Sequence record: PZ513997.1
Strand: one strand, 5' to 3'
Origin: a phage
DNA: 40,530 nt
The notes beneath the pieces were generated by a model, which did not search any database, had not been told where the DNA came from, and saw only the letters and a program-made list of their open reading frames with translations. Positions within the stretch are counted from its first letter, which is position 1. The number at the start of each line of letters is the position of its first letter. Shown here in pieces: positions 1,444 through 37,803 of this stretch. A program made the position numbers and the translations under genes.

Positions 1444-1983
1444 ATGCTATCGAATAAAATCAAGGCAGCGCTGGCAGGGTCTTCCCTGCTGGGCGCGAGC
1501 CTATTCGCAGTAATTGAAAGCAACGAAGGCTTATCCCTCACTGCTTACAAAGATTCCGCAGGCGTACCTACCATCTGCTATGGCGAGACTAAAGGCGTTA
1601 AAATGGGCCAAAAGGCTACGCTGTCGCAGTGTCAGGCCATGCTGATACAGTCAGCAGGGGAACACGCTAAGGCTCTTGACGGGCTTCCTATGCATCTTAC
1701 GGACGTACAGCTTCTGGGAGCCATAGACCTAACCTATAACATTGGGGTATCAGGTTTCAAGAACAGCACCGTGAAGCGCAAGCTAATGCAAGGGGATAAT
1801 AAAGGTGCTGCTCAGGCCGTACTAGCGTGGCGCTACATCACTGTTAAGGGTAAGAAGTACGATTGCTCAGTTAAGGCCAACAAGGTCTGCTACGGCCTCT
1901 GGAAGCGCCGTGTTTGGGAATCCCAAGCTATTGGCAATGAATTTAAATCAATGCAGGCAGCAGTAGCTGCTATGCCTAAATAA
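1444..1983 (+). CDS. SAR endolysin, T4-lysozyme-like muramidase (GH24)
   Basis: 179 aa. 'ESNEGLSLTAYKDSAGVPTICYGET' matches the T4 lysozyme catalytic region '[21 protein letters not shown]' with the same Glu-Asp-Thr spacing. The N-terminal Gly/Ala-rich weakly hydrophobic segment 'KIKAALAGSSLLGASLFAVI' directly precedes the catalytic Glu, as in signal-arrest-release endolysins (P1 Lyz, phiKMV gp45). Confidence 0.8.
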   Translation: MLSNKIKAALAGSSLLGASLFAVIESNEGLSLTAYKDSAGVPTICYGETKGVKMGQKATLSQCQAMLIQSAGEHAKALDGLPMHLTDVQLLGAIDLTYNIGVSGFKNSTVKRKLMQGDNKGAAQAVLAWRYITVKGKKYDCSVKANKVCYGLWKRRVWESQAIGNEFKSMQAAVAAMPK

Positions 1984-3084
1984 ATGAGTCTAATTAATCA
2001 GCGCCGTCGTATCTCTAAGGGTGGCAATACCGGCGGTGGTGGCGGTACTGGGCCACAAGGACCTGTAGGGGAGCAAGGCCCTGTAGGGCCTATGGGTCCG
2101 GCAGGTGCAGATGGCCCAGTAGGTCCAGTAGGTCCAGTCGGTCCACAAGGTCCTCAAGGCCCAGCTGGGCCTCAGGGTCCGCAAGGTCTGCAAGGTCCTG
2201 AAGGTGTTCAAGGAGCTAAGGGAGATAAGGGCGATACTGGTCCAGCGGGGCCAGCGGGTCTCAACTTCCGTGCTGCTTGGGTTCCGGGCTTGACCTATGC
2301 TTTACAGGATTCAGTAGCCTACAATGGTAGTACTTGGTTTGCTAATTCGGCTATTGAGGCAGACGTAACGCCCGGTACTGATCCTCGTTGGGTGCTGCTT
2401 GCTATGCAGGGTACTAAGGGGGATACCGGACCTACAGGTCCACAGGGGCCTCGCGGAGTGCAAGGCGTGCCCGGAGACGTAGGCCCTCAGGGTCCGCAGG
2501 GTATAGCAGGCCCGCAGGGTATTCGCGGTCCTCAAGGTGATACCGGCGAGCAAGGTCCCGCAGGGCCACAGGGCGCTAGAGGTATACAGGGAGTTAAAGG
2601 CGATAAAGGCGACAAGGGTGATAAAGGGGATACAGGCGCTACTGGACCCCAAGGACCCGCAGGTCAAAATAATACCAATAATCCAGTATATACTACACAA
2701 CTTGCAGTATCTACTAGCTATTCGGCAATAGCTATTCCTAATAACCCCGGAGTATCCTTAACGGTTAGACGTGTCAGCAATAATATTGAGTATTCATTTA
2801 CTGGTAACTCCATTGCGGGTAGGTACTTCGACGTAGAATTAGTTAACTTCCCCTCAGCGGACGTAGTCAAAAGGTATCAATCTAACCATACAATAGCAGG
2901 TACTAGCCGCTATGTAGTAGGCGACCCCGCAGGCTACACTGGTACAGGATACAAGAAGATTCAAATTACTGCAAGGGATTGGGGAGATAAGAATATTATT
3001 ATCATAGACCTGTTCCACCTACAACGAGCTGGGGATGCTAACTTCAACATCGCCATTAGGATTGAGACCTTTAAACTTCCTTAA
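1984..3084 (+). CDS. collagen-like (Gly-X-Y) repeat protein, probable tail fibre or fibre-associated protein
   Basis: 366 aa. Two long uninterrupted G-X-Y tracts ('[46 protein letters not shown]...' and '[52 protein letters not shown]...') followed by a non-repetitive C-terminal domain. Confidence 0.65.
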
Positions 3085-3684
3085 ATGGCGGTAGTAAGAA
3101 AGCAGCGTAGAGTTGACGGTAAGAAGCAGAACTACTATTGGGATACTGAATTATGTATTGAGGTAGCAGCTCCTGTAAGGAAAAAGCACTATAGCATAGC
3201 TAATCCTATGCAAGGCTTGATAGGTTACGCTGTGATGCACGATAGCGAGCTTAAACAAGGTATAACAGACGCGTTTGCTAACTTTAACGGTAGTCAGATG
3301 CGTAACGGTTTAACTGGTATCAGTATACCTAAGTTGATTGAGTTAGCAGATACACAACCAGAGCTATATAGTACTGAGCATCCAGAGAGTACTAACCATG
3401 CTGCGTATGATGCAGCGCTTACTATGCTTCTAGTATTAGTGCGTGAACGTATCCCTGAATGGGAAGAGGCGTACAGATATGATATGCATAATAGTGGGTT
3501 AAATATCGTTGATTTAATGTGTGAACAAGGCTATGACACTGATAACTATACCGGTGCTATAGCTAATAGTCTTAATCAGGTTTGGAGTGAAGGTAAGCTC
3601 TTAGTAGGCACTGAGGCTAACAAGCATTGGCTTAAATCTCAGGGATTTTCTAAACTGCGTTCCCAGCGTAATAGATACATTTGA
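3085..3684 (+). CDS. hypothetical protein (weak resemblance to DnaQ-like 3'-5' exonuclease motifs)
   Basis: 199 aa ORF. 'YYWDTEL' resembles an Exo I D-x-E motif and 'NHAAYDAALTML' resembles an H-x-A-x-x-D motif, but spacing is atypical. Weak. Confidence 0.3.
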   Translation: MAVVRKQRRVDGKKQNYYWDTELCIEVAAPVRKKHYSIANPMQGLIGYAVMHDSELKQGITDAFANFNGSQMRNGLTGISIPKLIELADTQPELYSTEHPESTNHAAYDAALTMLLVLVRERIPEWEEAYRYDMHNSGLNIVDLMCEQGYDTDNYTGAIANSLNQVWSEGKLLVGTEANKHWLKSQGFSKLRSQRNRYI

Positions 3685-6649: not shown

Positions 6650-6957
6650 GAATGACACAGCACCAGAAAGCACAGCAACTAGCTAAGAACTACTACACCT
6701 TCCTGATTAACAATGAATGTAACACCTGTTTCGCTTGGAATGCAGCTATGGCCCTTTTCAAACTGGAGATGCAGAAATGAATGACTGACCTTAACCCTGA
6801 ACTGATTGTAATGCGTAATGATGAAGTAACTGTACAGAACCTAGCTCGCGAGTACGATGCGCGGACTGAGCTGCATGAATACTACAAAGCTAAGGCTGAC
6901 CGTGTAGGTCTAACATTAGAAGCTTATTGCAAACGCTTTGGCGTTAAACTTCACTAA

Positions 6958-7287
6958 ATGTTGCCAGTAAACGAAGTAGTCGGGCAGTACTGGCGTATGC
7001 TTGAGACTCAAAGCAGCTTAGGCCGTAAGACATTGCAAGATATACCGATAGAGCTGCGCAGGCTCTGCCCTTTGAAATGGTGTACTGATTGGCAGTATCG
7101 TGAAGGTATGCGCCTGCTGGTAGGTTATTACAGCTATGATAACGAGAGAGCTTCAGAAGTCCTTCAGCGCATAGATTTTAATGTAATAAGGGAGTTGCAG
7201 GAGAAAGGGTATGAAGGTGCTAAGCAAGCGTTTAAGGATGCTTGCTTAGACTATTATGAATGGCAAGTATCGTACAGAGGTATCTAA
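6958..7287 (+). CDS. hypothetical protein
   Basis: 109 aa ORF directly upstream of primase. No motif recognised. Confidence 0.4.
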   Translation: MLPVNEVVGQYWRMLETQSSLGRKTLQDIPIELRRLCPLKWCTDWQYREGMRLLVGYYSYDNERASEVLQRIDFNVIRELQEKGYEGAKQAFKDACLDYYEWQVSYRGI

Positions 7288-8061: not shown

Positions 8062-9336
8062 ATGGACTTTAATTTACTACGCGCTTTCTGTGAACGTAAG
8101 GTAATGGATAGGTTGTACGAACAGACGCCTAAGTCCTTGCTAGCACCTGATACGGTAGCGATGATTGGTTGGCTGCAACTGTACTTCGCAACTTATCCTG
8201 ACTCTAACGAAGTTAACTTTGAGATGATGAATACGCTCTTGGATATGCGAGGGACACATCTTCAGAAAGAGCAGCTGGATATTATGAAGCATATGCTTAA
8301 GACTATTCAGAACGTCCCTACTGAGCTTGTAGCAGGTACAGTTAAGACACTGAATGAGCTAGCTTACTCTGGCGAGATGGCTGCACTAGTGAGCAAGTAT
8401 CAGGCAGGTGATGAAATAGATTTCGTACAGGAAGCTAAAGCACTTGAGCGTAAGTACTCTGGTGTAGTAGCTGCTAATGATTCATTACTTAAATGGGAAG
8501 ATGGAGGTGTAGATGATATTCTCGCGGCTACTGATGAGTCTGGTGGTCTTAAGCTTACTGTGTTCAGTGAGTTGGCTAGAAACATTCGCGGCTTGCGGGG
8601 TGGTGATTGTGTCGCTGTGGCTGCTCCTGTTGACGCTGGTAAAACTTCTCTCCTTGCTGCTGCAGTAGTTAGCTTAGCTGAGCAGATGCATGAGCAGAAG
8701 GAGATTTACGCGGAGCGTCCTATACTGTGGCTGGTAAATGAATCATTAGCCAAGCGCACTGTTCCTCGTATCTATCAGGCAGCTACTGGGCTGACTCTTC
8801 AGCAGATTGTAGAGCAGCATAAAGAAGGTAAGTTCGCTGATAAGTATCTGAAGAAGGTTGGGACGTGGGATAAGATTCGCGTTAAGGATGCGCACAGTAT
8901 GAATCTGGGGCAGATTTCAACCTTACTGGAGGAAATGAAACCTGCTGTTCTAGTAGTAGATATGGTGAGTGGTATCAAGGGCGCGAATGCTGACTCAGAA
9001 CATCAGGCACTGGAGCGTACTTGGCAGGAACTGCGCATCTTAGGCTGTGAGCATGACTGTATTATCATTGGTAGTATGCAGCTATCGGCAGAAGGTTACG
9101 ATATGCTCTATCCCCCACTGACTGCTATGAAGCAATCACGCATCGGAGTACAGGGTGCATTAGACCTTTGTATTATGATGGGAAGATTGAATGTGAATGA
9201 TAAGCCGGACATGGCTAACATTCGCGGAATCTCTACCCCAAAATCAAAATTAACTAAGTCCGGCTGTCAGAGCTATGTTCAATTTCAGGTTGAATTTGAC
9301 GGAGGACGTTGTCAGTTTAAGGAGGGTACATTATGA
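8062..9336 (+). CDS. replicative DNA helicase (DnaB / T7 gp4 helicase-domain-like)
   Basis: 424 aa. Walker A 'APVDAGKTSLL'; Walker B-like 'VLVVDMVSG'. Confidence 0.8.
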   Translation: MDFNLLRAFCERKVMDRLYEQTPKSLLAPDTVAMIGWLQLYFATYPDSNEVNFEMMNTLLDMRGTHLQKEQLDIMKHMLKTIQNVPTELVAGTVKTLNELAYSGEMAALVSKYQAGDEIDFVQEAKALERKYSGVVAANDSLLKWEDGGVDDILAATDESGGLKLTVFSELARNIRGLRGGDCVAVAAPVDAGKTSLLAAAVVSLAEQMHEQKEIYAERPILWLVNESLAKRTVPRIYQAATGLTLQQIVEQHKEGKFADKYLKKVGTWDKIRVKDAHSMNLGQISTLLEEMKPAVLVVDMVSGIKGANADSEHQALERTWQELRILGCEHDCIIIGSMQLSAEGYDMLYPPLTAMKQSRIGVQGALDLCIMMGRLNVNDKPDMANIRGISTPKSKLTKSGCQSYVQFQVEFDGGRCQFKEGTL

Positions 9337-9762
9337 ATGAGCGAATGTATAGAACATAACCAGAAGGGCAACAAAGCTGGTTACGGCAATGGTTACTGGA
9401 ACGGTGAACAGGTTATGCTTCACCGCTTAGCCTATTGCTTTAACAAGCAAATACCTGTAAGTGAAATTAAAGGTAGTGTAGTGATGCACACCTGTGATAA
9501 CCCTCGCTGCATTAACCCAACGCACTTACGCTTGGGTACTCAGGATGAAAACATGAAAGATATGCAAGGCAAGGGAAGGATGAGCCAGGGCAGTAAGCAT
9601 TACATATCTAAACTTACTGAGGAGGATGTTAAGTACATACGTGAGAATTATATACCACGGCATCCAAAGTTTGGAGGTAAGGCGCTTGCTGCTAAGTTTG
9701 GTATAAATCCGGCATCCCTGTGTCAAATACGAAAAGGCCTACGCTGGAAATCCGTAAGCTAA
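9337..9762 (+). CDS. HNH homing endonuclease
   Basis: 141 aa. 'HRLAYCF...VMHTCDNPRCINPTHLRLGTQDENMKD' is an HNH_3-type motif (His, Asn, His with Cys zinc ligands). Free-standing between helicase and polymerase. Junction shows duplicated 'atgaatga'. Confidence 0.8.
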   Translation: MSECIEHNQKGNKAGYGNGYWNGEQVMLHRLAYCFNKQIPVSEIKGSVVMHTCDNPRCINPTHLRLGTQDENMKDMQGKGRMSQGSKHYISKLTEEDVKYIRENYIPRHPKFGGKALAAKFGINPASLCQIRKGLRWKSVS

Positions 9763-9915
9763 ATGTTAAAGTCAGAAGACATTACAGAGCAGGACTACGA
9801 GGTTATCCGTGCGATAGCTAATAACCGTAAGCAGGTTAAACGCTACACGCTGGATAGCAGTGAGATGATTGTACGAGCAGCACTTAACAGAGCACGGCGC
9901 GAGGGGTGGAAATGA

Positions 9916-11130
9916 ATGAGCAGCATACTGATTTGGGATATTGAAACGCAGAACGTACCTTACTATGGCGGGGTTGCTACACCTTACTGCCCAGATAACT
10001 ACATTGTGGAATCAGGCTTCAGGATTGATAGAACTAATCCAGATGGTACGGTGACGTGCAGTGATGTAGGTAGCGTGCGTTACGAGTCGCGGGAGGAGTT
10101 CATCTCAGCACCTAGTAGTCAGTGGTTGCCTATTCAGGACGATACTTGGTTAATGGTAATGCATAACGCCGCATATGAGATTAGCTGGGCGTTGACGTTT
10201 GCTAGGGAAGAGTTTGAAGCATTCCTGAAACGGGGAGGGCGCGTATTCGATACAATGCAAGGCGAGTACATTGCCTCAGACTTCCAAAACCTTTACCCAT
10301 CATTAGATGAGACGGCTCCTAAGTACGGCGGCAGCCACAAGGTTGACGGCGTTAAACTGCTATGGCAGCAGGGCGTGTTAACAGCAGATATTGACCCTGT
10401 ACTGCTGCATGAGTATCTAACAGGGCCAGAAGGTGATATCGTAAACACAGCGTTATGCTTCTACGGGCAGTGTGCAGTGTTCGCTGAGCGTGGGCAGATG
10501 CCTATGGTCTGGGAAAGGATGGATAGTGTACTGGCCTTAGCCTACTGCGAGTTCAACGGTGTGTACGTAGACATGCCTACAGCCAGAGCTAACCAGAAGG
10601 AGCAGGAGGACGCTATAGCAGAGCTGAAGCAGACGCTGCAAGGCTTCTTACCTGAACTGCCTGAGGGATTTGAGTTCAACTGGAACAGCGGTTATCATAT
10701 GAGTGCGTTGGTGTACGGCGGTACGGTTAAGTACAAGTGCAAGGTCCCGTATGACCCGCCAAAGTTTGTAAAGTTCGATGCCTACCTGGCCGATGTTAAG
10801 GGTACTCAGCAATACATAGATGTTAATGATTGGCAAGATAGCTGGACGTACAGCCGTGAAGTGTTTAAGTCTGGACGTAATAAAGGTCTGCCCAAAGTTT
10901 ACAAGGTGGAAAGTTCAGAGCAGTCTATGAAGTGGGGTGAGCGCCTGTATAAGTTCGAAGGGCTTGTGCACATCCAAGACCTACCAGCAGTATTGCAAGA
11001 GAAGTACGCAGAGCGCGGAGAGTTCCGAGGTGCTCAGACATTGGCAGATGGTACACCTGTGTTCAGTACAGGGACTGATGCTATGAAAGAACTGGCTAAC
11101 TATTTTATTGGGATGGAAGAGAATGAGTAA
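9916..11130 (+). CDS. DNA polymerase, N-terminal part (3'-5' exonuclease domain)
   Basis: 404 aa. Exo I motif 'ILIWDIETQN'. Followed in frame by the polymerase-domain ORF. Confidence 0.8.
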   Translation: MSSILIWDIETQNVPYYGGVATPYCPDNYIVESGFRIDRTNPDGTVTCSDVGSVRYESREEFISAPSSQWLPIQDDTWLMVMHNAAYEISWALTFAREEFEAFLKRGGRVFDTMQGEYIASDFQNLYPSLDETAPKYGGSHKVDGVKLLWQQGVLTADIDPVLLHEYLTGPEGDIVNTALCFYGQCAVFAERGQMPMVWERMDSVLALAYCEFNGVYVDMPTARANQKEQEDAIAELKQTLQGFLPELPEGFEFNWNSGYHMSALVYGGTVKYKCKVPYDPPKFVKFDAYLADVKGTQQYIDVNDWQDSWTYSREVFKSGRNKGLPKVYKVESSEQSMKWGERLYKFEGLVHIQDLPAVLQEKYAERGEFRGAQTLADGTPVFSTGTDAMKELANYFIGMEENE

Positions 11131-12285
11131 ATGAGTAACAAGGCTTCGGAGTTCTTCAAGGCATACAGTGAGATGACCTTGCGTGAGAAAGATTTAGGCT
11201 TCTATGAGAAGAAGGAATTTAACAAGGACGGTAGCCTGCGTAAGACTACAGGTATGCTTCCGTATGTAATCCCTCAGAAGGAAGACGGCAGCGGCATCAT
11301 TCATCACAGATTGAATCACTGCTCAACCACGACCGGACGACTATCAGCATCTAACCCGAATATGCAGCAGTTGCCGCGTGAATCTAAGGTTAAGCAGATT
11401 CTGCGTAGTCGTTACGGTGAGCAAGGTATGATTGCTCAGTGTGACTACTCAGCTATGGAAGTTGTAATGGGCTGTGTAATAACAGGTGATAAGAAACTAC
11501 TATCCTTGCTTGAAGCTGGTACAGATATGCACTGCTATCGTTTAGCATTCCAAGAGGGTATGCCTTATGAAGAAGTCTACGAGCTTTGCCATAACCCGGA
11601 TGCACCTAACCATAAGGAATGGAAGAAGAAACGAACAGCAATCAAAACCTTCAGCTTCGCAGCGCAGTATGGAGCTTCCGCTAAAGGACTGGCGTTCGCC
11701 TCTGGTGCCAGCCTGAAGGACGCTGAGAAGTTCTTAGCTAACGAAGAAGCCCTGTTCCCTGAATCTATTAAGTACCGTGATGTAATTGCAGCAGAGGTAA
11801 ATCGTACAGCACTGTTAGAGCCTATGCGCCGCGAGCAATCAGATGATGGTAGCTGGCGTATCTATCGGGAAGGCTATTTTACTGCTCCTTGTGGTACTCG
11901 TTACCGCTTCCGTCAGAAACCTGTATGGCGTGAAGGTAAGCAGGTCATGGACTTTAAACCTACAGAGATGGCTAACTATCCATTTCAAGGTTCAGGTTCT
12001 CTGCTTATGCTTATTGCGATGGGTATGATTCTGCGCGCAGGATTAGCTACGGATTGGGGTAACGGTAGTTGGTGCTTGTTAGCAACTGTACATGACTCCG
12101 TATATTGTGACTGTAAAGATGAGTCAACGGCGAGGGAAGTAGGTCAATTAATTAAGAAATGTATGGAAGGTGCAAGAGATAGAATGCTGCAACTTTGGCC
12201 TAACTTCGGAATACTACAGGACGTTAAATTCCCTGCCGAGTGTGGTATTGGTAAATCATTTAAAGAGGAGCAGGTACTTGGCTAA
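11131..12285 (+). CDS. DNA polymerase, C-terminal part (family A polymerase domain)
   Basis: 384 aa. Motif A 'CDYSAMEVV', motif B 'RTAIKTFSFAAQYGAS', motif C 'VHDSVYCDC'. Confidence 0.85.
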   Translation: MSNKASEFFKAYSEMTLREKDLGFYEKKEFNKDGSLRKTTGMLPYVIPQKEDGSGIIHHRLNHCSTTTGRLSASNPNMQQLPRESKVKQILRSRYGEQGMIAQCDYSAMEVVMGCVITGDKKLLSLLEAGTDMHCYRLAFQEGMPYEEVYELCHNPDAPNHKEWKKKRTAIKTFSFAAQYGASAKGLAFASGASLKDAEKFLANEEALFPESIKYRDVIAAEVNRTALLEPMRREQSDDGSWRIYREGYFTAPCGTRYRFRQKPVWREGKQVMDFKPTEMANYPFQGSGSLLMLIAMGMILRAGLATDWGNGSWCLLATVHDSVYCDCKDESTAREVGQLIKKCMEGARDRMLQLWPNFGILQDVKFPAECGIGKSFKEEQVLG

Positions 12286-12329
12286 GTGGTATTGGTAAAT
12301 CATTTAAAGAGGAGCAGGTACTTGGCTAA
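12242..12329 (+). repeat. exact 44-bp tandem duplication at a CDS junction
   Basis: 'gtggtattggtaaatcatttaaagaggagcaggtacttggctaa' occurs at 12242-12285 (polymerase 3' end) and again at 12286-12329 (start of the HNH ORF, GTG start, read in a different codon phase). This is the pattern expected when two CDSs that overlap by 44 bp are concatenated. Confidence 0.7.
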
Positions 12330-12825
12330 AGTTACTAAACCTATACCGGAAGGCATACGGGAATTTTGGAGATATGATTCTGAGAGTGGGAAATTAATAT
12401 GCATACAAAACATAAAGCGCACTAAGTACAGTGAAGGCATAGTTGCAGCTAGTCTTACAACTACAGGTAATTATCTAAAGCTGAATTTTAATAAGGTAAG
12501 CTACCTTCAGCATCGGGTAGCATGGTTCCTTTACTATAATGAACAACCTCCTGAAGTTATAGACCACAAGGACGGTAACGGCCTTAACAACGCTATAAAC
12601 AACCTGCGTGCTGCAGATGATGGTTGTAACATGATGGACATTACTGTAACTGCTAAATCCACTACAGGTATTAAAGGTGTCATGCCTGTACGGGGAGGTA
12701 AGCTGTTCCGTGCCGAAGTATGTGTAGATGGTAAGCGCTACCAGAAGCACAGCAAGGACGTAGCTTTCTTAGAGCAGTGGGTACAGGCTAAGCGTAAAGA
12801 ATTACACGGAGAGTTTTATAAATAG
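12286..12825 (+). CDS. HNH homing endonuclease with AP2-like DNA-binding domain
   Basis: 179 aa. HNH motif 'VIDHKDGNGLNNAINNLRAA' and AP2-like 'GIKGVMPVRGGKLFRAEVCVDGKRYQKHSKDVAFLEQWVQAKRKELHG'. Its 5' end is the second copy of the 44-bp duplicate. Confidence 0.75.
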   Translation: MVLVNHLKRSRYLAKVTKPIPEGIREFWRYDSESGKLICIQNIKRTKYSEGIVAASLTTTGNYLKLNFNKVSYLQHRVAWFLYYNEQPPEVIDHKDGNGLNNAINNLRAADDGCNMMDITVTAKSTTGIKGVMPVRGGKLFRAEVCVDGKRYQKHSKDVAFLEQWVQAKRKELHGEFYK

Positions 12826-12949
12826 ATGCTTGCTGACGCTACTGACCGTTTCCGGTTGGCTCCCTGCCTCGTCGATGTGTGTACTATACGGAAAGCATCC
12901 CTGCTTGTCAACAGCTATTTATAAGTGTACGGGAGGAACCGTTCAGTCT

Positions 12950-13050
12950 CGTTTTATCTACCCAGAGACTTCAGAAGGGCAACCGCTTATCGTCCTCGGT
13001 TAACGTCTTGCTATGTGGCACATCTTACTTACTTCGTTACTGCTTGTCAA
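12950..13050 (+). repeat. copy B of the roughly 100-bp repeated non-coding element (paired with 4033-4140)
   Basis: See copy A. Lies in the 366-bp non-coding-looking island 12826-13191 downstream of the HNH gene. Stem aaccg/cggtt at 12981-13001. Confidence 0.45.
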
Positions 13051-13191
13051 TCTCTTTCTTAAATGATTCTTACTTTCATCTACTACCTCCTATTAATAAA
13101 GTTAAGGCTGCAATCTCTGAAGACTGCATCACTAACCCTACTTAAGTTAGCGAGTCTTATTTCTCCTAGACTCTCATCTGCATCACACTGA

Positions 13192-13380
13192 ATGAAAGTA
13201 AGAATCATCAATCACGATGCTTATGGTCCTTTCTTAACTGATACATGTAAGGAACTGTACGCAGTAGGTACAGTGCATGAAGTACAAGATTTCTTCCCTG
13301 ACACGGGGGAGGTTATCTTAGGGTATGAAGATGAAGGATTTACCTTTGATCCATCAGAGTATGAAGTTGTGGAGGAGTAG
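13192..13380 (+). CDS. small acidic hypothetical protein
   Basis: 62 aa, strongly acidic ('...FDPSEYEVVEE'). Immediately upstream of the pentapeptide-repeat gene. Confidence 0.35.
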   Translation: MKVRIINHDAYGPFLTDTCKELYAVGTVHEVQDFFPDTGEVILGYEDEGFTFDPSEYEVVEE

Positions 13381-13902
13381 ATGAACTATTTAGATATCTG
13401 CGAGAAGTACAATGTAGGAAGCCTGCGCGACGCTAACCTGCGCGACGCTGACCTGTACGGCGCTAACCTGTACGGCGCTGACCTGCGCGACGCTAACCTG
13501 TACGGCGCTAACCTGTGCGGCGCTGACCTGCGCGACGCTAACCTGTACGGCGCTAACCTGTGCGGCGCTGACCTGCGCGGCGCTAACCTGCGCGGCGCTA
13601 ACCTGCGCGGCGCTAACCTGTACGGCGCTAACCTGCGCGGCGCTAACCTGCGCCTAACCTGCGCGGCGCTAACCTGTACGGCGCTAACCTGCGCGGCGCT
13701 AACCTGCGCGGCGCTAACCTGTGCGGCGCTAACCTGTGCGGCGCTAACCTGCGCGGCGCTAACCTGCGCGGCGCTAACCTGTACGGCGCTAACCTGCGCG
13801 ACGCTAACCTGCGCGACGCTGACCTGTGCGGCGCTGACCTGCGCGACGCTGACCTGTGCGGCGCTAACCTGCGCGGCGCTGACCTGCATGGGACTGACTT
13901 GA
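13381..13902 (+). CDS. pentapeptide-repeat protein (Qnr/MfpA-type fold), reading frame disrupted
   Basis: First 90 codons encode perfect A(N/D)LxG pentapeptides ('[30 protein letters not shown]...'). At 13651-13661 one 15-nt unit is 11 nt, shifting the called frame into 'LTCAALTC...'. The pentapeptide frame continues to a TAG at 13935-13937 ('...[19 protein letters not shown]'). Confidence 0.6.
13426..13886 (+). repeat. 15-bp tandem repeat array (about 31 units, one truncated to 11 bp)
   Basis: Units of form 'cgcgRcgctRacctg', head to tail with no spacers. This is the coding repeat of the pentapeptide-repeat gene. Truncated unit at 13651-13661. Confidence 0.85.
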
Positions 13903-15117: not shown

Positions 15118-15570
15118 ATGACTGAAGAGTTAATACGCGAATACCTTGCGCTAGACCCTTCTAGTCCTACTAATCTGAAGTGGATTAAGACTTCTGGCAG
15201 CCGGGTTAAGTTAGGGTCTGTGCAAGGTTATCTAAACTCGCATGGTTATGTTAAGGTTAAACTCAAAGGAAAGGCGCTGTCGCTGCATCGCGCAGTGTTC
15301 TTATTACATTATGGATACCTTCCATATGAGGTAGATCATGTAAATAGGGATAAGACTGATAACAGACCTGATAATCTTAGAGCAGCAACTAGAAGCTCTA
15401 ACTGCCATAATAAGAACTGCACGGGATTTAACTTTGATAAGAAGTCACAGAAGTTTAGAGTCCGTGTGCAAGTAACTACCACTAAGCGAATTACTGTAGG
15501 CTGGTATGATAGTCCATTTGAGGCTAGGGCAGCTTACTTAACGTTCAAAACAGCTAACAATCTAATCTAA
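15118..15570 (+). CDS. HNH homing endonuclease with AP2-like domain
   Basis: 150 aa. N-terminal 'YLALDPSSPTNLKWIK', HNH motif 'YEVDHVNRDKTDNRPDNLRAATRSSNCHNK', AP2-like 'FRVRVQVTTTKRITVGWYDSPFEARAAYLTF'. Paralogous to 21916-22392. Confidence 0.75.
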   Translation: MTEELIREYLALDPSSPTNLKWIKTSGSRVKLGSVQGYLNSHGYVKVKLKGKALSLHRAVFLLHYGYLPYEVDHVNRDKTDNRPDNLRAATRSSNCHNKNCTGFNFDKKSQKFRVRVQVTTTKRITVGWYDSPFEARAAYLTFKTANNLI

Positions 15571-16758: not shown

Positions 16759-17679
16759 ATGATGATTGGCGGCGTTAATCTAGATACTCTGGCGGTTCAA
16801 CTAGAGACGCCGCCAGTCTCTGATAAGGTACTGCTGTTAGATGCAGACCAGCATATATACAAAGCCGCTAGTACTGTTAAGCGGCTTGATACTGCAATAC
16901 GTAGGTTTTACCAGTCAGTACTAGAGGAGAAATTCTATGTTAACACTAAAGAAGTTCGGGCCTACATTACGCCTTCTAATAACTTTAAGTGCGGACGTTT
17001 CCTACTACCGACCGTTAAGCCCTATCAACAACAACGTTCAACTAGAGAAGAGCTACCTCTCAAGGCCCCACTTAAAGAACATCTTATCGCTAATCCGCAT
17101 GAATACGCAGCGCAAGGTATAGAAATTGTATTCGATTACTTAGCTGAAGCGGATGACCGTATCATAGAAGACAGCATTGAGTTCGGAGAGCGAGGTGTAG
17201 TTAGCAGCTTCGATAAAGATATGAATCTGTGCAGAGGTCCTAAGTGGAATCCCGAGCTGGGCACTATCGACACTATTGATAACGAGTACGGTTGGATAGA
17301 TTACAATAAGGATAAAGGTAAGATTGTAGGACATGGCACAGCATTTTTCTGGGCGCAGATGCTAATGGGTGATACTGCTGACAACGTCAAAGGTATTCAA
17401 ACTTTAAACGGTAAATCTTGCGGTCCGGCTAAGGCTTACGAGTTCTTAAAGGACTTCACAGATTCGACCAACTCAGCTAGGGCAGTAGTCCTAGCTTACG
17501 CTGAAATTAACCAGAACTTCCTAGCCGAGGCTGAATGCCTATGGCTGCACAGAAACAAAGATGATTCAGCATTCAAGTACATACACCCTTTGTTAGACGA
17601 CGAGCTTCAGAAGTGGTGCGAGTCTCTACATTCCTACAACGAGGATTACAAAGCATGGCGACTTTCAACGCAGCAGTAG
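16759..17679 (+). CDS. 5'-3' exonuclease (T7 gp6-like, FEN family)
   Basis: 306 aa. Matches to T7 gene 6 exonuclease blocks: 'VLLLDADQHIYKA' vs T7 'ILVMDGDWLVFQA'; 'VVSSFDKDMNL' vs 'IISCDKDFKTI'; 'MGDTADNVKGIQ' vs 'KGDITDGYSGIA'. Confidence 0.8.
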   Translation: MMIGGVNLDTLAVQLETPPVSDKVLLLDADQHIYKAASTVKRLDTAIRRFYQSVLEEKFYVNTKEVRAYITPSNNFKCGRFLLPTVKPYQQQRSTREELPLKAPLKEHLIANPHEYAAQGIEIVFDYLAEADDRIIEDSIEFGERGVVSSFDKDMNLCRGPKWNPELGTIDTIDNEYGWIDYNKDKGKIVGHGTAFFWAQMLMGDTADNVKGIQTLNGKSCGPAKAYEFLKDFTDSTNSARAVVLAYAEINQNFLAEAECLWLHRNKDDSAFKYIHPLLDDELQKWCESLHSYNEDYKAWRLSTQQ

Positions 17680-17704
17680 ATGGCGACTTTCAACGCAGCA
17701 GTAG
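17655..17704 (+). repeat. exact 25-bp tandem duplication at a CDS junction
   Basis: 'atggcgactttcaacgcagcagtag' at 17655-17679 (exonuclease 3' end) and again at 17680-17704 (start of next ORF). Same signature as the 44-bp case. Confidence 0.7.
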
Positions 17705-17874
17705 AAGCAATCGTGGAACTGTACTTCAAAGAAGAGTTCGCAGAGATGGAAGCTAAGCTGTCTGACTTGTACGATGTAAGTCCTGAGTTGTACAGACAAG
17801 CGCAGGTTAAGCTAGAAGATTTGATTGCAGAGCAACATTGCTTAGATGAAGGTGAGGAGCTTGATTTATGGTAA
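17680..17874 (+). CDS. small acidic hypothetical protein
   Basis: 64 aa, strongly acidic, between exonuclease and endonuclease VII. Confidence 0.35.
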   Translation: MATFNAAVEAIVELYFKEEFAEMEAKLSDLYDVSPELYRQAQVKLEDLIAEQHCLDEGEELDLW

Positions 17875-18300
17875 ATGGTAATGCGTAAGGTTACACGTGC
17901 ACAGTTAAGAAGCATCACTATGAAACTGGCTAAGGAGCAGGGAGGTAACTGCCTGCTCTGCGGCGAGCCTTTGGACTTCTCAATTAAAGGGGCTAAAGGT
18001 GATAGCGTTGTTTGTGACCATGACCATATTACTGGACGTATTCGTGGGGCATTGCACAGGTCGTGCAATGGGGGTGAGGGGAAAGTGGCGTCCGCTTGCG
18101 GTAGGTGGATTGTTGGTAGTATGGGTAGCAGTGCTGCTATCGCCAATGCTCTGCGCAATATGGCTGACTACTTAGAGCGTGAACCTACTGACTTCATTTA
18201 TCCTACGCACAAAACAGAAGAAGAGAAGCGCCTAGCAGCTAACGCTAAGGCACGTAAGGCTAGGGCAACCCGTAAGGCAGCACAGGAGATTAAGAAATGA
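17875..18300 (+). CDS. endonuclease VII-like DNA junction-resolving enzyme
   Basis: 141 aa. 'CLLCGEPLDF...VVCDHDHITGRIRGALHRSCNGGEG' matches the T4 endonuclease VII zinc-binding/HNH-like core (C-x2-C ... DHDH-x-TG-x-RG ... CN). phiKMV-like phages carry this in the same position. Confidence 0.8.
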   Translation: MVMRKVTRAQLRSITMKLAKEQGGNCLLCGEPLDFSIKGAKGDSVVCDHDHITGRIRGALHRSCNGGEGKVASACGRWIVGSMGSSAAIANALRNMADYLEREPTDFIYPTHKTEEEKRLAANAKARKARATRKAAQEIKK

Positions 18301-19035: not shown

Positions 19036-21486
19036 ATGAAACACGAATCATTAGAACAGAAAGTAGAACGTCAGGTACAGCTAGAGAAGGATTACCGTAC
19101 ACGTAGCCTGAATAAGTCACGTGAGCTTGTACAGAAAGCTATGCAAGCTGGTAATCTTTCAAGCCTGCCTAAGGTATCTCGTATGATTGCAGCTGCTTAC
19201 GACACCGTAGCAGCAGGCATTGACGAGATGAAGGCAGAGAAAACAGCAGGCGTAGGCGGCAAGTACCGCAGCGTTATACGTCTGGTTCCTACGGATGTAC
19301 TGACCGTGATGACTTTAACTAAGTGTTTCGATGCCCTCTTTGTATCTGAAGGCGGCAGCTCTCGCGTGAGTGCTGGTACTCTGCTGGCTAATATTGGTCG
19401 TCAGGTACAGGCAGAAGTCCTAAGCATTCAGCTTGAGACTGTAGCACCTGCATACATGAACCGAGTGTTCGAGTACTTGAAAGAACGTAATACTACCAGC
19501 CCTTCCCACATCATGAAGACACTGCGCGCTTCAGCTGAGAATGTGCACTTAGGGCATGAGCCGTGGAGCAACTCTCAATGTGTAGCGGTAGGTAAGCTCC
19601 TGCTTCAACCAGCTTGGGAGACGGGCCTGTTCCAGTGGGATAAGGCTACCGATGCCACCCGCATGTCCTACCTTGCACCTGCACCTGAATTAGCCGAGCA
19701 CTTGCAAGAACTGGTAGAAGATGCAGATACAGTAGATATCAAGCCGCCTATGCTGGTTAAGCCTAACCGCCACGATACACTGTTCTCCGGCGGTTACCTG
19801 CTCCCTTCTACCTGTAAGCGTGGTACTTATCACAACCGCCAGATTACTCGCAGCATGAAGCGCGATGTGTCTGACGCATTCAAGGAAGCGACTGAACTTA
19901 AGTCTGCTCTGAATAAGTCTCAAGAAGTTCCTTACGTAATTAACAAGCAGATTCTTAACCTGATTAATGAGGCGCGTCGTACTGGAGTAACTGCCGGTAT
20001 GCCCAGCGCTTTCCCTGCTCCTAAACCTGAATGGTATCTGGACGGTGTACCTAAAGAAGAGTACACAGAGCGTCAGATGGATGACTTCCAAACTTGGAAG
20101 ATGAACATGCGCAACTGGTACATCAATGAGCGTGCAAGGGTAAGTAAGCTGCGTTCCTTGATTTCACTGGTTCAGATTTGCGAAGAGTTTAAAGATGAAG
20201 AAGAGCTGTACTTCCCAACCTGCGTTGACTGGCGCTACCGTCTGTACTTCAAATCAAGCCTGCATCCTCAAGGTTCTGACATGCAAAAAGCTCTGCTGTC
20301 CTTCGGTCGGGCAAAGCCTCTGGGAGAGCGGGGTCTGTTTTGGCTCAAGGTACACGTCGCTACCTGCTATGGTTATGATAAGGCCTTATTCGAAAAGCGT
20401 GCAGCTTGGACTGATGCTAATATCGAGCAGATTCGACTTGTCGCATCAAGTCCGTTTAATGCAGAGGCTTTTAAAAGTGCCGACAGTCCGTGGTGTTTTC
20501 TGGCTGCCTGCATCGACCTCGTTGCTGCTCTTGACTCTGAAAGCCCAGAGCTTTACGAATCGCGGCTTCCGGTGGCTATGGATGCAACCAACTCTGGCAG
20601 CCAGCACTTCTCAGCTCTACTGCGTGACCCAGTAGGCGGTAAACTTACTAACCTGTTCTGGGAAGGTAACGAAGAGAAAGCGGATATGTACATGGACGTT
20701 AAGCAGCGTACTGATGCTAAGGTCATCATGGACTTGGACAATCCTGAGTTCGTAGTACAGGCTCAGTTCTGGCGTGAGAACGAGATTACTCGTAGCATGA
20801 CCAAGCGCCCTTGCATGACACACGTATACTCTGCAACTGTTCGCTCGTGCTCTGAGTACATCCTCCAGTCTGCGCAGGAGGAAGGCTACGAAGGCACTGA
20901 GGAGTACAGCCTGTTCAAGCTGGCAGGTTACCTGAGTGGACGTATGAAGGCGGCGGTAGAGGACGCTAACCCAGCGGCTACAGCAGCAATGAAGTACCTG
21001 CAATCCCTGTGCTATAAAGTTCCGGCAGCCAATCACCTGCAATGGAAGACTCCGCTAGGTGGTCTGGTTATTAATCGTTACACTGAGTCTGAAGAGACTA
21101 CAGTCAAGGTTAAGAGCATGAACTTATCGCACCTGCTTATCTATAACCGTAACTACGATGTAAACAACAAGCGTAAGGCTAAGTCAGGTATCTCCCCTAA
21201 CTGGATTCACAGCTTAGATGCCACGCACTTGATGATGACTATTAATGCGTTCGAAGGTGATATCATGCCTATTCACGATTCAGTAGCTACACATGCTTGT
21301 GATGTAGATGTAATGCAGAAGGCAGTACGCGAGCAGTTCGTGCGCCTGTACACTGAGCACGATGTACTGCAAGAGATTACTGACGCAGCCGTAGAATGCG
21401 GCGCTGACTTGGAAGGTTTAGAAATGCCTGTTAAAGGTAATCTTAATATCCAATTAGTGAAGGAATCCCCGTTCTTCTTCTGCTGA
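19036..21486 (+). CDS. T7-like single-subunit DNA-directed RNA polymerase
   Basis: 816 aa. 'DATNSGSQHFSALLRD' vs T7 'DGSCSGIQHFSAMLRD'; 'RSMTKRPCMTHVYSA' vs T7 'RSVTKRSVMTLAYGS'; 'PIHDSVATH' vs T7 'IHDSFGT'. Its position after the replication genes is the phiKMV-like arrangement. Confidence 0.95.
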   Translation: MKHESLEQKVERQVQLEKDYRTRSLNKSRELVQKAMQAGNLSSLPKVSRMIAAAYDTVAAGIDEMKAEKTAGVGGKYRSVIRLVPTDVLTVMTLTKCFDALFVSEGGSSRVSAGTLLANIGRQVQAEVLSIQLETVAPAYMNRVFEYLKERNTTSPSHIMKTLRASAENVHLGHEPWSNSQCVAVGKLLLQPAWETGLFQWDKATDATRMSYLAPAPELAEHLQELVEDADTVDIKPPMLVKPNRHDTLFSGGYLLPSTCKRGTYHNRQITRSMKRDVSDAFKEATELKSALNKSQEVPYVINKQILNLINEARRTGVTAGMPSAFPAPKPEWYLDGVPKEEYTERQMDDFQTWKMNMRNWYINERARVSKLRSLISLVQICEEFKDEEELYFPTCVDWRYRLYFKSSLHPQGSDMQKALLSFGRAKPLGERGLFWLKVHVATCYGYDKALFEKRAAWTDANIEQIRLVASSPFNAEAFKSADSPWCFLAACIDLVAALDSESPELYESRLPVAMDATNSGSQHFSALLRDPVGGKLTNLFWEGNEEKADMYMDVKQRTDAKVIMDLDNPEFVVQAQFWRENEITRSMTKRPCMTHVYSATVRSCSEYILQSAQEEGYEGTEEYSLFKLAGYLSGRMKAAVEDANPAATAAMKYLQSLCYKVPAANHLQWKTPLGGLVINRYTESEETTVKVKSMNLSHLLIYNRNYDVNNKRKAKSGISPNWIHSLDATHLMMTINAFEGDIMPIHDSVATHACDVDVMQKAVREQFVRLYTEHDVLQEITDAAVECGADLEGLEMPVKGNLNIQLVKESPFFFC

Positions 21487-21915: not shown

Positions 21916-22392
21916 TTGAAAGGTATTGAAGAATACATAGCTTTAGACCCAAGTAGCCCTACGTATCTTAGCTGGATTAAGGCACCTCTTAGAGGACGTG
22001 TTAAAGTCGGCGAGCCGGCATTAATTTCCTTAAGCAAGACTAATTACTATCGTGGGAAGTTTCAGCAAAAGAACCTGCTTGCGCATCGCGTGGTGTACTA
22101 CCTCGCTACTGGAATTGAACCTCCAGCAATGCTAGACCATACAGACGGTAACAGGCAGAACAACAACCCAGATAACTTAAGGGCAGTAACTGCTCGAGAG
22201 AACAATCACAATAGGCATGCATGTAAAGGCTACCACTGGCGAAGTAACAGAAATCACTGGTGCGCTCAGATACATGTAGATGGGAAGGAGATATACCTAG
22301 GCTCCTTTCAAACTGAAGCGGAAGCTAGGGCAGCTTATCTAGAAGGTAAGCGGATATACCACCCAAGTGCACCGGTACATTTACTTAACTAA
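21916..22392 (+). CDS. HNH homing endonuclease with AP2-like domain
   Basis: 158 aa, TTG start as called. 'EEYIALDPSSPTYLSWIK', 'MLDHTDGNRQNNNPDNLRAVTARENNHN', AP2-like 'WCAQIHVDGKEIYLGSFQTEAEARAAYL'. Paralogue of 15118-15570. Confidence 0.7.
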   Translation: MKGIEEYIALDPSSPTYLSWIKAPLRGRVKVGEPALISLSKTNYYRGKFQQKNLLAHRVVYYLATGIEPPAMLDHTDGNRQNNNPDNLRAVTARENNHNRHACKGYHWRSNRNHWCAQIHVDGKEIYLGSFQTEAEARAAYLEGKRIYHPSAPVHLLN

Positions 22393-37503: not shown

Positions 37504-37803
37504 ATGGCTAAGGCGGCTACAAAGAGTCGCCTCGCTGAACTGCATAAGATGTTCACCGAGGCACTCATTTCAGAATTACAGCAGGCTAAGGATGAAGAGC
37601 TTCCTATGCCTGCGGCAGATAAATCAGTTATCGCTAACTTCCTAAAGGCTAATAACATTACAGCCGATGCAGACTCTACAGAGATGCAAGAGCTACGTGA
37701 TGAGTTCCAAGATGAGTTGGCAGAGAAACGTAAAGCACGGGCACAGGAACTGTTAGCGAAAGCTGGTGCAGACCCCGAAGACCCATTAGCAGGCATCTTA
37801 TAA
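37504..37803 (+). CDS. terminase small subunit, T7 gp18-like
   Basis: 99 aa, helical and acidic, directly upstream of the large terminase. Confidence 0.5.
   Translation: MAKAATKSRLAELHKMFTEALISELQQAKDEELPMPAADKSVIANFLKANNITADADSTEMQELRDEFQDELAEKRKARAQELLAKAGADPEDPLAGIL

What the first reader, a model, noticed from the sequence alone, without database searches (positions are those of the whole stretch)
12286..13191. Four free-standing HNH (HNH-AP2) endonuclease genes in the replication region, one overlapping the polymerase 3' end
HNH endonuclease ORFs occur at 9337-9762, 12286-12825, 15118-15570 and 21916-22392; the last two are close paralogues. The 44-bp duplicate at 12242-12329 implies the second one overlaps the polymerase gene by 44 bp in the native genome and is followed by a 366-bp non-coding island. 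This density suggests recent invasion by mobile endonuclease cassettes, which can drive marker exclusion between co-infecting phages.
Basis: partly seen in the sequence, partly recalled or inferred. Interest (0 to 1): 0.45.

Follow-up and report, generated by a model that had tools for sequence, protein, structure and literature searches.

The report
Free-standing HNH homing endonucleases in phage PAS7
The four HNH endonuclease genes are real and behave like ordinary selfish homing-endonuclease insertions, common in this kind of phage, while the 44-bp duplicate and the odd 'non-coding island' come from how the window was assembled.

Summary
The window is Escherichia phage vB_EcoP_PAS7 (OQ921331.1) with zero mismatches. 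It has been cut into gene calls and re-joined, with spacers dropped, overlaps duplicated and minus-strand calls flipped.

All four ORFs are HNH endonucleases (Pfam HNH_3). HNH2, HNH3 and HNH4 are I-HmuI-like HNH-AP2 proteins and only distant paralogues (28-40% identity). HNH1 belongs to a different His-Me subfamily.

Each gene is an ORF-sized insertion at a gene junction. Each site is empty, with conserved flanks, in at least three close relatives. Seven related genomes carry HNH genes at about 12 different sites. Mobility is therefore supported. 'Recent invasion' is not shown.

The 44-bp duplicate is an overlap between two gene calls. The likely HNH2 start is a conserved TTG with a Shine-Dalgarno sequence, which gives an 8-bp overlap.

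The 'island' is three spurious minus-strand calls that were reverse-complemented. In the native genome it is a 364-bp spacer. It holds two strong sigma70-like promoters and a covariation-supported structured leader RNA of about 200 nt. That leader occurs three times per genome and has no Rfam match.

The HNH finding is ordinary. The leader RNA is the only potentially new item.

The parts
9337..9762 (+). HNH1: a 141-aa free-standing HNH endonuclease of the zinc-loop His-Me type with a C-terminal HTH-like region. It lies between the helicase and the DNA polymerase.
   Evidence: Pfam HNH_3 28.5 bits and zf-His_Me_endon 31 bits. PHROG 6254/59, plus an HTH hit over residues 89-126. There is an 81% ortholog at the same site in P64441. 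The site is precisely empty in ECO104, L020 and L021.
9916..12285 (+). Family-A DNA polymerase split into two genes (9916-11130 and 11131-12285). In the native genome they overlap by 8 bp.
   Evidence: DNA_pol_A 109 bits on the C-terminal half. The split junction ...ATGAGTAA... is conserved in 5 genomes. The gene is a single ORF in phiKDA1.
12242..12329 (+). Exact 44-bp tandem duplicate. It is an artefact of writing two overlapping gene calls one after the other.
   Evidence: Both copies equal PAS7 9686-9729, which is single-copy in the genome.
12322..12825 (+). HNH2: the likely true CDS (167 aa, TTG start). It is an I-HmuI-like HNH nuclease with a C-terminal AP2 DNA-binding domain. In the native genome it overlaps the polymerase stop by 8 bp. 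The window's call starts at the GTG at 12286.
12883..12911 (-). Sigma70-like promoter P1 (TTGACA-17-TATAGT). In the native genome it is on the coding strand, 4 bp after the HNH2 stop.
   Evidence: 11/12 match, the best in 20 kb. Window position. Conserved in ECO104 and L021.
13022..13050 (-). Sigma70-like promoter P2 (TTGACA-17-TAAGAT).
   Evidence: It resembles an unannotated sequence near the left end (nt 569-623) of the T7-like coliphage IMEP24.
12925..13017 (-). 5' module of a structured leader RNA (four hairpins). The window's cut removes native bases 10471-10477. The remaining piece of the module is at 13171-13189 (-).
   Evidence: Nine copies were aligned (A2; five further full copies appear). 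13 of 19 pairs show compensatory change. 97% of cells pair against 76% when shuffled (0/500 shuffles reach this) and 29-45% when slid. No Rfam hit. Every reading frame is broken in several copies.
13101..13178 (-). 3' module of the leader: three hairpins directly upstream of the RBS of the 62-aa ORF.
   Evidence: 15 copies in 8 genomes, including phiKDA1. 14 of 20 pairs are compensatory. The covariance model scores 72 bits, E 1.7e-15, in the window.
12826..13191 (.).
   Evidence: Mapping. No PHROG hits. Not annotated in GenBank. Frames are not conserved between copies.
13192..13380 (+). 62-aa ORF, the first gene served by the leader.
   Evidence: Conserved in all relatives at 35-63% amino-acid identity where measured. 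PHROG 6862, function unknown.
15118..15570 (+). HNH3: a 150-aa HNH-AP2-type endonuclease inserted between the phosphoesterase gene and the p21-like gene.
   Evidence: HNH_3 56.6 bits. PHROG 99 at 6e-45. The site is empty in P64441, phiKDA1, L017, L020 and L021. ECO104 also lacks it but has lost the phosphoesterase gene, so it is not a clean empty site. The best foreign homologue is 43% identical. KP34 has a 31%-identical HNH at the equivalent site.
21916..22392 (+). HNH4: a 158-aa HNH-AP2-type endonuclease. Its TTG start overlaps the stop codon of the upstream gene, and it is inserted within the last two codons of that gene.
   Evidence: HNH_3 52.2 bits and a weak AP2 hit of 16.5 bits. A clean filled/empty junction is seen against P64441, ECO104 and phiKDA1. 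The site is empty in L017, L020 and L021. The best foreign homologue is about 50% identical.

Best explanation
The four ORFs are free-standing HNH (His-Me finger) homing-endonuclease genes. They are selfish insertions sitting at gene junctions of phage PAS7 (genus Cepavirus, Slopekvirinae).

Three of them (HNH2, HNH3, HNH4) share one architecture. It has an I-HmuI-like N-terminal DNA-binding region, an HNH nuclease core and a C-terminal AP2 DNA-binding domain. HNH1 is a different HNH subfamily, with a zinc-binding loop and an HTH-like tail.

Each is translationally coupled to, or placed just behind, a conserved gene:
- HNH1: ATGA overlap with the helicase stop.
- HNH2: TTG start, 8-bp overlap with the polymerase stop.
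- HNH4: TTGA overlap with the upstream stop.
- HNH3: inserted between the RBS and the ATG of the next gene, bringing a new RBS with it.

Inferred mechanism. In a mixed infection the enzyme nicks or cuts the endonuclease-free allele near the insertion site. Repair then copies the endonuclease gene and nearby markers from the carrier genome.

Shown here: identity, domain architecture, intact catalytic residues, exact insertion junctions, and a sporadic distribution with empty sites.
Inferred, not shown: cleavage activity, target sites, homing and marker exclusion.

The 44-bp duplicate and the scrambled 'island' are artefacts of the window's gene-by-gene concatenation. In the native genome the spacer is a host-RNA-polymerase promoter region with a structured leader. 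It is independent of the endonuclease.
For: Identity of the window: 0 mismatches to OQ921331.1, segment by segment.

HNH family: Pfam above the curated cut-off for all four. PHROG HNH families score 1e-40 to 6e-45 for HNH2-4 and 7e-29 for HNH1.

Architecture of HNH2:
- AF2 model with pLDDT 93.8.
- Profile against PDB: 1u3e at 1.7e-8, AP2 proteins at 0.0065 and 0.0084.
- Remote full-length homologues carry precomputed PF00847 plus PF13392.
- The catalytic D-H...N...N residues align to I-HmuI D74/H75/N87/N96.

Empty sites with conserved flanks:
- HNH1 is absent in ECO104, L020 and L021.
- HNH2 is absent in P64441 and phiKDA1. Empty junction ...GGTAATTTAAT|TAAAATAAGTGTTGACA against filled junction ...TATAAATAGTT|TAAAATAAGTGTTGACG.
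- HNH3 and HNH4 are absent from all six relatives.

Turnover in the clade: about 12 distinct HNH sites in 7 genomes, a frameshifted HNH in ECO104, and a group I intron carrying an HNH inside ECO104's polymerase gene.

Recurrent position of HNH2: homologues of 51-54% identity abut or overlap the annotated DNA polymerase gene in Klebsiella KpV48/IME337 and the Pectobacterium PP90 group. They also occur in Acinetobacter Friunavirus, where a homing endonuclease downstream of the polymerase is described (PMC5537680).

Literature. HNH genes flanking or interrupting the DNA polymerase gene are described as a common feature of Fri1-like phages (PMC5537680). HNH-AP2 homing-endonuclease genes and 'HEG islands' bracketing essential genes are described in PMC10448857.
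Against: No activity, target site or homing event was observed.

Sliding-window identity around HNH1 and HNH2 shows a mosaic pattern. It shows no co-conversion tract that tracks HNH presence.

GC content of the HNH genes (41-45%) is only about 1-1.5 SD below other genes (48.2 +/- 4.8%), so there is no strong foreign signature.

HNH2 of PAS7 has Asp where at least 90% of homologues have Asn at position 106, outside the four residues that align with I-HmuI's active site.

Pfam's AP2 model itself does not reach its threshold on any of the four proteins.
Confidence: 0.85

Rival explanations
1. Some or all of the four genes are decaying or already inactive relics of past invasions. They would be intact ORFs that no longer cut or home.
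For: The homing-endonuclease life cycle predicts such relics. A relative (ECO104) carries a frameshifted HNH at L004 17577-18031. HNH2 evolves faster than its neighbour: 69% aa identity against 99% for the adjacent polymerase segment. PAS7 HNH2 has N106D at a position that is at least 90% conserved.
Against: All four ORFs are full length. The catalytic D-H/N/N residues align to I-HmuI for HNH2 and are visible in the HNH3 and HNH4 sequences. Start codons and Shine-Dalgarno sequences are conserved. The HNH2 model is confidently folded.
Confidence: 0.15
2. The HNH proteins are domesticated phage functions. Candidates are a terminase-associated HNH needed for packaging, a replication or recombination nuclease, or a host-DNA-degrading nuclease. 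On this view they are not selfish elements.
For: HNH proteins are required next to the terminase in HK97-like phages (general knowledge). HNH2-type genes recur at the polymerase 3' end in several genera. That recurrence could be read as functional linkage.
Against: None of the four is adjacent to the terminase genes (window 37504-39516). Each is dispensable in close relatives that keep all flanking genes. Different, non-orthologous HNH paralogues (30-45% identity) occupy varying sites. The same site can hold a different HNH type in different genomes: the HNH1 site in L017, and the HNH3 site in KP34.
Confidence: 0.07
3. The features that drew attention in 12286-13191 (tandem 44-bp repeat, long overlap with the polymerase, gene-free island) are a real structural peculiarity of the phage. 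One example would be a duplication made by endonuclease-mediated repair.
For: In the window as given, the repeat is exact and tandem.
Against: The deposited genome has one copy. The same duplicate-at-overlap pattern occurs at every overlapping gene pair in the window, and spacers are missing throughout. The island's three pieces are exact reverse complements of consecutive native segments.
Confidence: 0.01

Closest known systems
I-HmuI (Bacillus phage SPO1, PDB 1U3E)
   Different: I-HmuI is encoded inside a group I intron and has a C-terminal helix-turn-helix domain. HNH2 is free-standing (no intron detected in PAS7) and ends in an AP2 domain. Identity is only 21%.
HNH-AP2 homing endonucleases (Magnani et al. 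2004, cited in PMC10448857; 'IPA-HNH' HEGs of ICP1)
   Same: An N-terminal HNH plus a C-terminal AP2 domain. They are free-standing genes next to essential genes, and several can bracket one core gene ('HEG islands').
   Different: The ICP1 proteins are too divergent for Pfam HNH_3. The PAS7 proteins hit HNH_3 directly but fall below the Pfam AP2 threshold. No activity data exist for the PAS7 proteins.
HNH genes around the DNA polymerase of Fri1-like Acinetobacter phages (PMC5537680) and of Klebsiella KpV48 and the Pectobacterium PP90 group
   Same: They are homologues of HNH2 (51-54% identity). In Klebsiella KpV48/IME337 and the PP90 group the match abuts or overlaps the annotated polymerase gene. 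In Fri1-like phages a homing endonuclease downstream of the polymerase is described (PMC5537680). Distribution within each genus is sporadic.
   Different: They belong to different genera. In some Fri1-like phages the HNH interrupts the polymerase gene. In PAS7 the polymerase is split at another position with no HNH in the split.
T4 free-standing homing endonucleases (SegG, MobE)
   Same: This is the model for the inferred mechanism. An intergenic endonuclease gene cleaves the endonuclease-free genome nearby, and nearby markers are co-converted and excluded (PMC2790892, PMC2988022).
   Different: The Seg proteins are GIY-YIG enzymes. MobE is an HNH but has no AP2 domain. Homing is demonstrated experimentally only for the T4 system.

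Membership tests
HNH / His-Me finger endonuclease (Pfam HNH_3, PF13392) | Score above the curated Pfam gathering threshold | tested here: met
   28.5, 32.8, 56.6 and 52.2 bits against a cut-off of 24.8 for HNH1-4
HNH / His-Me finger endonuclease (Pfam HNH_3, PF13392) | Catalytic Asp-His general base and the metal-binding and structural Asn residues are present | tested here: met
   HNH2 D81/H82/N94/N103 align with I-HmuI D74/H75/N87/N96. N90, L95, R96 and N103 are invariant in 61 homologues, which include HNH3 and HNH4. For HNH1 this was judged by inspection only.
HNH / His-Me finger endonuclease (Pfam HNH_3, PF13392) | Beta-beta-alpha-metal fold | tested here: met
HNH-AP2 homing endonucleases | C-terminal AP2 DNA-binding domain (three-stranded sheet plus helix) | tested here: met
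HNH-AP2 homing endonucleases | The same architecture in HNH1 | tested here: not met
   HNH1 has zf-His_Me_endon plus HNH_3 and an HTH-like C-terminus (PHROG 517). It has no AP2 signal and no similarity to HNH2-4 beyond the motif.
Free-standing homing endonuclease gene | ORF-sized presence/absence polymorphism with conserved flanks in close relatives | tested here: met
   All four sites are empty in at least three relatives, with base-level junctions.
Free-standing homing endonuclease gene | Not embedded in an intron or intein | tested here: met
   No Rfam intron in PAS7. The ORFs lie between genes. By contrast, ECO104 has RF00028 with an HNH ORF inside its polymerase gene.
Free-standing homing endonuclease gene | Site-specific cleavage of the endonuclease-free allele | not testable with these tools
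   This needs purified protein and empty-site DNA.
Free-standing homing endonuclease gene | Biased inheritance or co-conversion of flanking markers | tested here: inconclusive
   Sliding identity over helicase-polymerase-HNH2 shows a mosaic pattern but no tract linked to HNH presence. Crosses are needed.
Terminase-associated HNH (HK97-type packaging accessory) | Gene adjacent to the terminase/portal genes and conserved across the group | tested here: not met
   None of the four adjoins the terminase genes (window 37504-39516). All four are dispensable in relatives.

The most novel reading that the evidence does not exclude
The native DNA behind the 'island' (PAS7 10226-10589) carries an undescribed cis-acting structured leader RNA.

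Structure. It has a four-hairpin module of about 120 nt with conserved loops (ACGATAA, GGGTRGATA). This is followed by a three-hairpin module of about 78 nt that runs into the RBS.

Distribution. It sits immediately downstream of strong sigma70-like promoters at three places per genome in PAS7-like phages. The 3' module is also present in phiKDA1.

Possible role. In KP34-type phages, promoters for the phage RNA polymerase were found only outside the replication region (PMC6834552). The early and middle genes therefore probably depend on the host polymerase. The leader could be a put-like antitermination element, or a processing, stability or translation element, for those host-polymerase transcription units.

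The probability given is for 'a real, previously undescribed functional leader RNA'. The specific antitermination role is much less likely (about 0.15).
Probability: 0.6. Interest if true: 0.5.

Novelty: new member of a known kind. Interest (0 to 1): 0.25.

Why it matters
For the HNH genes it matters little. They document once more that podovirus replication modules are hot spots for homing-endonuclease turnover. They also give exact filled and empty junctions that could serve as substrates for specificity studies, or as natural markers in crosses between Cepavirus phages.

Practically, the check shows that this window is a gene-call concatenate. Tandem duplicates at gene boundaries, missing spacers and 'non-coding' blocks in it must not be read as biology.

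The leader RNA, if functional, would be a handle on how these phages drive and protect host-polymerase transcription of about 17 kb of early and middle genes.

Tried and rejected
- Rfam on the whole PAS7 genome (gathering threshold) and on the native spacer (E<=1): nothing. No tRNAs.
- Pfam AP2 on the four proteins: below threshold.
- Co-conversion tracts by sliding identity: inconclusive.
- Foreign-composition test: the HNH genes are only slightly AT-richer.
- Looking for more copies of the leader. The strict pattern gave 2 viral contigs and 0 metagenome contigs. The relaxed pattern gave 9 metagenome hits, all chance matches. The covariance model of the 3' module found nothing in the first 15 kb of KP34 or SDFMU_Pec.
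- The idea that the three tiny ORFs in 12826-13191 are genes was rejected. They have no family hits, are not annotated, and their frames are broken in paralogous copies.
- The idea that the SDFMU_Pec ORF overlapping its polymerase end is an HNH2 homologue was rejected: no similarity.
- The PAS7 paper (PMC11522302) does not mention HNH genes, the polymerase or promoters.

Full report
WHAT THE WINDOW IS

A megablast of 11800-13400 hit Escherichia phage vB_EcoP_PAS7 (OQ921331.1, 42,514 bp, Slopekvirinae, proposed genus Cepavirus) at 99.8% identity, but in three pieces. Mapping the whole window onto that record shows 64 consecutive segments with zero mismatches. Each segment is one gene call. Intergenic DNA is left out and overlapping gene ends are written twice. 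Minus-strand calls are reverse-complemented. The last three PAS7 genes (tail fibre, endolysin, tailspike) appear first, in reverse order. This explains why all ORFs abut exactly. The window is therefore a gene-by-gene concatenate of a public genome, not a native sequence. I used the native record (L002) for everything that depends on context.

CHECKING THE OBSERVATION

The four ORFs exist at the stated coordinates. All exceed the Pfam HNH_3 gathering score. A profile scan of all six frames finds no fifth HNH gene. In PAS7 coordinates the four are 6741-7166, 9722-10225 (GenBank start), 12767-13219 and 19681-20157. GenBank labels the first two 'HNH endonuclease motif protein' and the other two 'hypothetical'.

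HNH2, HNH3 and HNH4 belong to one family (PHROG 99, E 1e-40 to 6e-45). They are distant paralogues. HNH3 and HNH4 share 40% identity, HNH2 and HNH4 share 34%, and HNH2 and HNH3 share 28%. 'Close paralogues' is therefore too strong. HNH1 is a different subfamily: zf-His_Me_endon plus HNH_3, PHROG 6254/59, with an HTH-like tail.

The 44-bp repeat is exact. Both copies are PAS7 9686-9729. The window's gene caller started HNH2 at a GTG 44 bp inside the polymerase gene, so that stretch was written twice.

The 366-bp 'island' is PAS7 10314-10216, 10470-10333 and 10606-10478. These are three minus-strand mini-ORFs of 32, 45 and 42 aa that were flipped. They have no family hits and are not annotated in GenBank. 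The homologous stretches elsewhere carry stops in every frame. They are spurious calls. The native 364-bp spacer (10226-10589) is non-coding.

THE START OF HNH2

Five genomes carry HNH2: PAS7, ECO104 4-5-2, and three metagenome/SRA assemblies L017, L020 and L021. In all five a TTG start sits 7 nt downstream of the AGGAG core of an AAGAGGAG-type Shine-Dalgarno sequence. The upstream GTG is present in only two of the five. GenBank and the independent gene calls of the protein collection all use the 167-aa TTG form. Alignments to homologues begin at residues 4-10 of that form. The native overlap with the polymerase is therefore most likely 8 bp (TTGGCTAA), not 44 bp.

WHAT THE PROTEINS ARE

The label 'HNH-AP2' is thus right for HNH2. 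By full-length homology it is right for HNH3 and HNH4 too, although the Pfam AP2 model alone is sub-threshold. It is wrong for HNH1. Foldseek against PDB found nothing significant.

ARE THEY MOBILE?

I compared PAS7 with six relatives:
- P64441 (about 79% nucleotide identity);
- ECO104 4-5-2 (about 83%);
- phiKDA1 (Koutsourovirus);
- three further relatives recovered through HNH2 homologues: L017, L020 and L021.

Site by site:
- HNH1. It is present at 81% aa identity at the same site in P64441. L017 has a different, PHROG-99-type HNH at that site. ECO104, L020 and L021 go straight from the helicase to the next gene. The ECO104 junction is clean to the base.
- HNH2. It is present in ECO104, L017, L020 and L021 (69-85% aa) and absent in P64441 and phiKDA1. 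The empty site reads ...GGTAATTTAAT|TAAAATAAGTGTTGACA. The filled site reads ...TATAAATAGTT|TAAAATAAGTGTTGACG.
- HNH3. It is absent from all six relatives. ECO104 has also lost the neighbouring phosphoesterase gene, so it is not a clean empty site. The gene sits between the RBS and the ATG of the p21-like gene and brings a second RBS. KP34 has a 31%-identical HNH at the equivalent site.
- HNH4. It is absent from all six. It is inserted within the last two codons of the upstream gene. It supplies a new stop for that gene and uses the old stop for itself.

Across the seven genomes, HNH genes occupy about 12 different junctions. ECO104 has a frameshifted HNH. It also has a group I intron (RF00028, 51 bits) with an HNH ORF inside the conserved SNP/NMQQ motif of its polymerase gene.

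'Recent' is not supported. HNH1 and HNH2 orthologues are as diverged as their flanks, or more so. HNH3 and HNH4 have no relative above 43-50% identity among 50,697 phage records. GC content is only slightly low. Sliding identity shows no co-conversion tract tied to HNH presence.

HNH2-type genes (51-54% identity) recur in other genera. In Klebsiella KpV48/IME337 and the Pectobacterium PP90 group the match abuts or overlaps the annotated polymerase gene. Homologues are also present in Acinetobacter Friunavirus, and a homing endonuclease downstream of the polymerase has been noted for Fri1-like phages (PMC5537680). HNH-AP2 homing-endonuclease genes and 'HEG islands' around essential genes are described in PMC10448857. 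The PAS7 paper does not discuss any of this (PMC11522302).

MECHANISM

Shown: these are intact HNH endonuclease genes, placed as ORF-sized insertions and translationally coupled to conserved genes, with a gain/loss distribution.

Inferred from the T4 Seg/Mob paradigm (PMC2790892, PMC2988022): the enzyme cleaves or nicks the endonuclease-free allele during co-infection. Recombinational repair then copies the gene and its flanking markers.

Rivals are inactive relics (0.15) and domesticated functions (0.07). No HNH gene is near the terminase, and all are dispensable in relatives.

WHAT THE 'ISLAND' REALLY HOLDS

In the native spacer, the best sigma70-like promoter in 20 kb (TTGACA-17-TATAGT, 11/12 match) starts 4 bp after the HNH2 stop. 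A second promoter (TTGACA-17-TAAGAT) lies 116 bp further on.

Behind the second promoter lies an element of about 200 nt that is repeated three times in PAS7: about 1071-1261, about 2984-3100 (5' module only) and 10376-10568. It is also repeated three times in P64441 and L020, and it is found in L017 and in two IMG/VR contigs. It always follows a sigma70-like promoter and always lies on the coding strand.

The 5' module folds into four hairpins. 13 of 19 pairs show compensatory changes, and 97% of cells pair. That compares with 76% in shuffles (0/500 shuffles reach the observed value) and 29-45% in slid controls.

The 3' module has 15 copies in 8 genomes, including phiKDA1. It forms three hairpins that end in CAGAATTAAGAGG-N-ATG, and 14 of 20 pairs are compensatory.

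Frequent G-U pairs place the structure on the plus-strand RNA. There is no Rfam match. Collection scans found no further relatives.

P64441 lacks HNH2 but has the same promoter and leader directly after its polymerase gene. The leader is therefore part of the phage's transcription layout, not part of the endonuclease cassette.

In KP34, promoters for the phage RNA polymerase were found only at about 0.5 kb, within the RNA polymerase gene, and at about 33.7 kb (PMC6834552). This is consistent with host-polymerase transcription of the replication region. The leader's function is unknown. Candidates are a put-like antiterminator, or a processing, stability or translation element.

In the window the leader lies on the minus strand and is cut: 12925-13017, 13171-13189 and 13101-13178.

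VERDICT

The HNH finding is an ordinary, well-known kind of feature. The duplicate and the island are construction artefacts. The structured leader is the only element that may be new.

Noticed in passing
whole window (e.g. 1-3084, 12242-12329, 12826-13191): The window is PAS7 (OQ921331.1) with 0 mismatches, re-assembled as a concatenate of gene calls. Spacers are deleted, overlaps are duplicated and minus-strand calls are flipped. The last three genes (tail fibre, endolysin, tailspike) are placed first, in reverse order. Any boundary repeat or 'non-coding' block in it is suspect.
   Followed up: yes
window 12925-13017, 13101-13189 (minus strand); native L002 10376-10568; also L002 ~1071-1261 and ~2984-3100: A structured leader RNA of about 200 nt (a four-hairpin module plus a three-hairpin module) lies directly behind sigma70-like promoters, three times per genome. 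Covariation is strong and there is no Rfam match. It is found in PAS7, P64441, L017, L020 and two IMG/VR contigs. The 3' module also occurs in ECO104, L021 and phiKDA1. Copy 2 (PAS7 2952-3158) is missing from the window altogether.
   Followed up: partly
window 9916-11130 and 11131-12285 (native L002 7368-8582 / 8575-9729): The family-A DNA polymerase is split into two translationally coupled genes (...GAATGAGTAA...). The split is conserved in PAS7, P64441, L017, L020 and L021. The gene is a single ORF in phiKDA1 and KP34. ECO104 has an extra 70-aa ORF in the gap, and also a group I intron with an HNH ORF in the C-terminal half (L004 3356-4042).
   Followed up: partly
window 13381-13902 (+) versus GenBank CDS on the opposite strand (L002 10872-11375, 'modular polyketide synthase'): The plus-strand ORF is a pentapeptide-repeat protein (Pfam E 1.6e-28; 15-nt tandem periodicity, 26 repeat copies). 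GenBank annotates the mirror ORF on the minus strand under an implausible name. P64441 annotates the co-oriented pentapeptide protein and has a second one in its early region.
   Followed up: partly
native L002 10258-10344 (window 12826-12882 minus strand, plus 18 bases lost): The roughly 90-nt stretch transcribed from promoter P1 contains a GAAA-tetraloop hairpin (CCGGAAACGG). It is conserved in ECO104 and L021. About 80% identical sequence lies in unannotated DNA of two other coliphages, vB_EcoS_HSE2 and BUCT823.
   Followed up: no
native L002 10783-10802 (spacer dropped from the window, between 13380 and 13381): A terminator-like hairpin with a T-run lies immediately after the 62-aa ORF, which is the first gene behind the third leader copy. 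It could serve as a test bed for an antitermination role of the leader.
   Followed up: no
native L002 12684-12766 (spacer dropped from the window, before 15118): A conserved motif (consensus about CCCTGCATnnGCACGTnAAnAnTACATTAAT in P64441 and phiKDA1, degenerate in PAS7), followed by a hairpin, lies between the phosphoesterase gene and the next gene, upstream of the HNH3 insertion point. It does not resemble the published KP34 RNA polymerase promoters.
   Followed up: no
L004 (OR844702.1), 31551-31804 and 17577-18031: The relative ECO104 4-5-2 has a second group I intron (RF00028, 65 bits) in its late region. It also has a frameshifted HNH gene between the scaffold and capsid genes. Fragments of the same sequence are deposited as 'Listeria phage LM 4-11-1/4-14-1', and a related full-length record as 'Salmonella phage S.Kent 1-2-1'. 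The host labels are probably unreliable (the ECO104 record itself is flagged UNVERIFIED_ORG).
   Followed up: no
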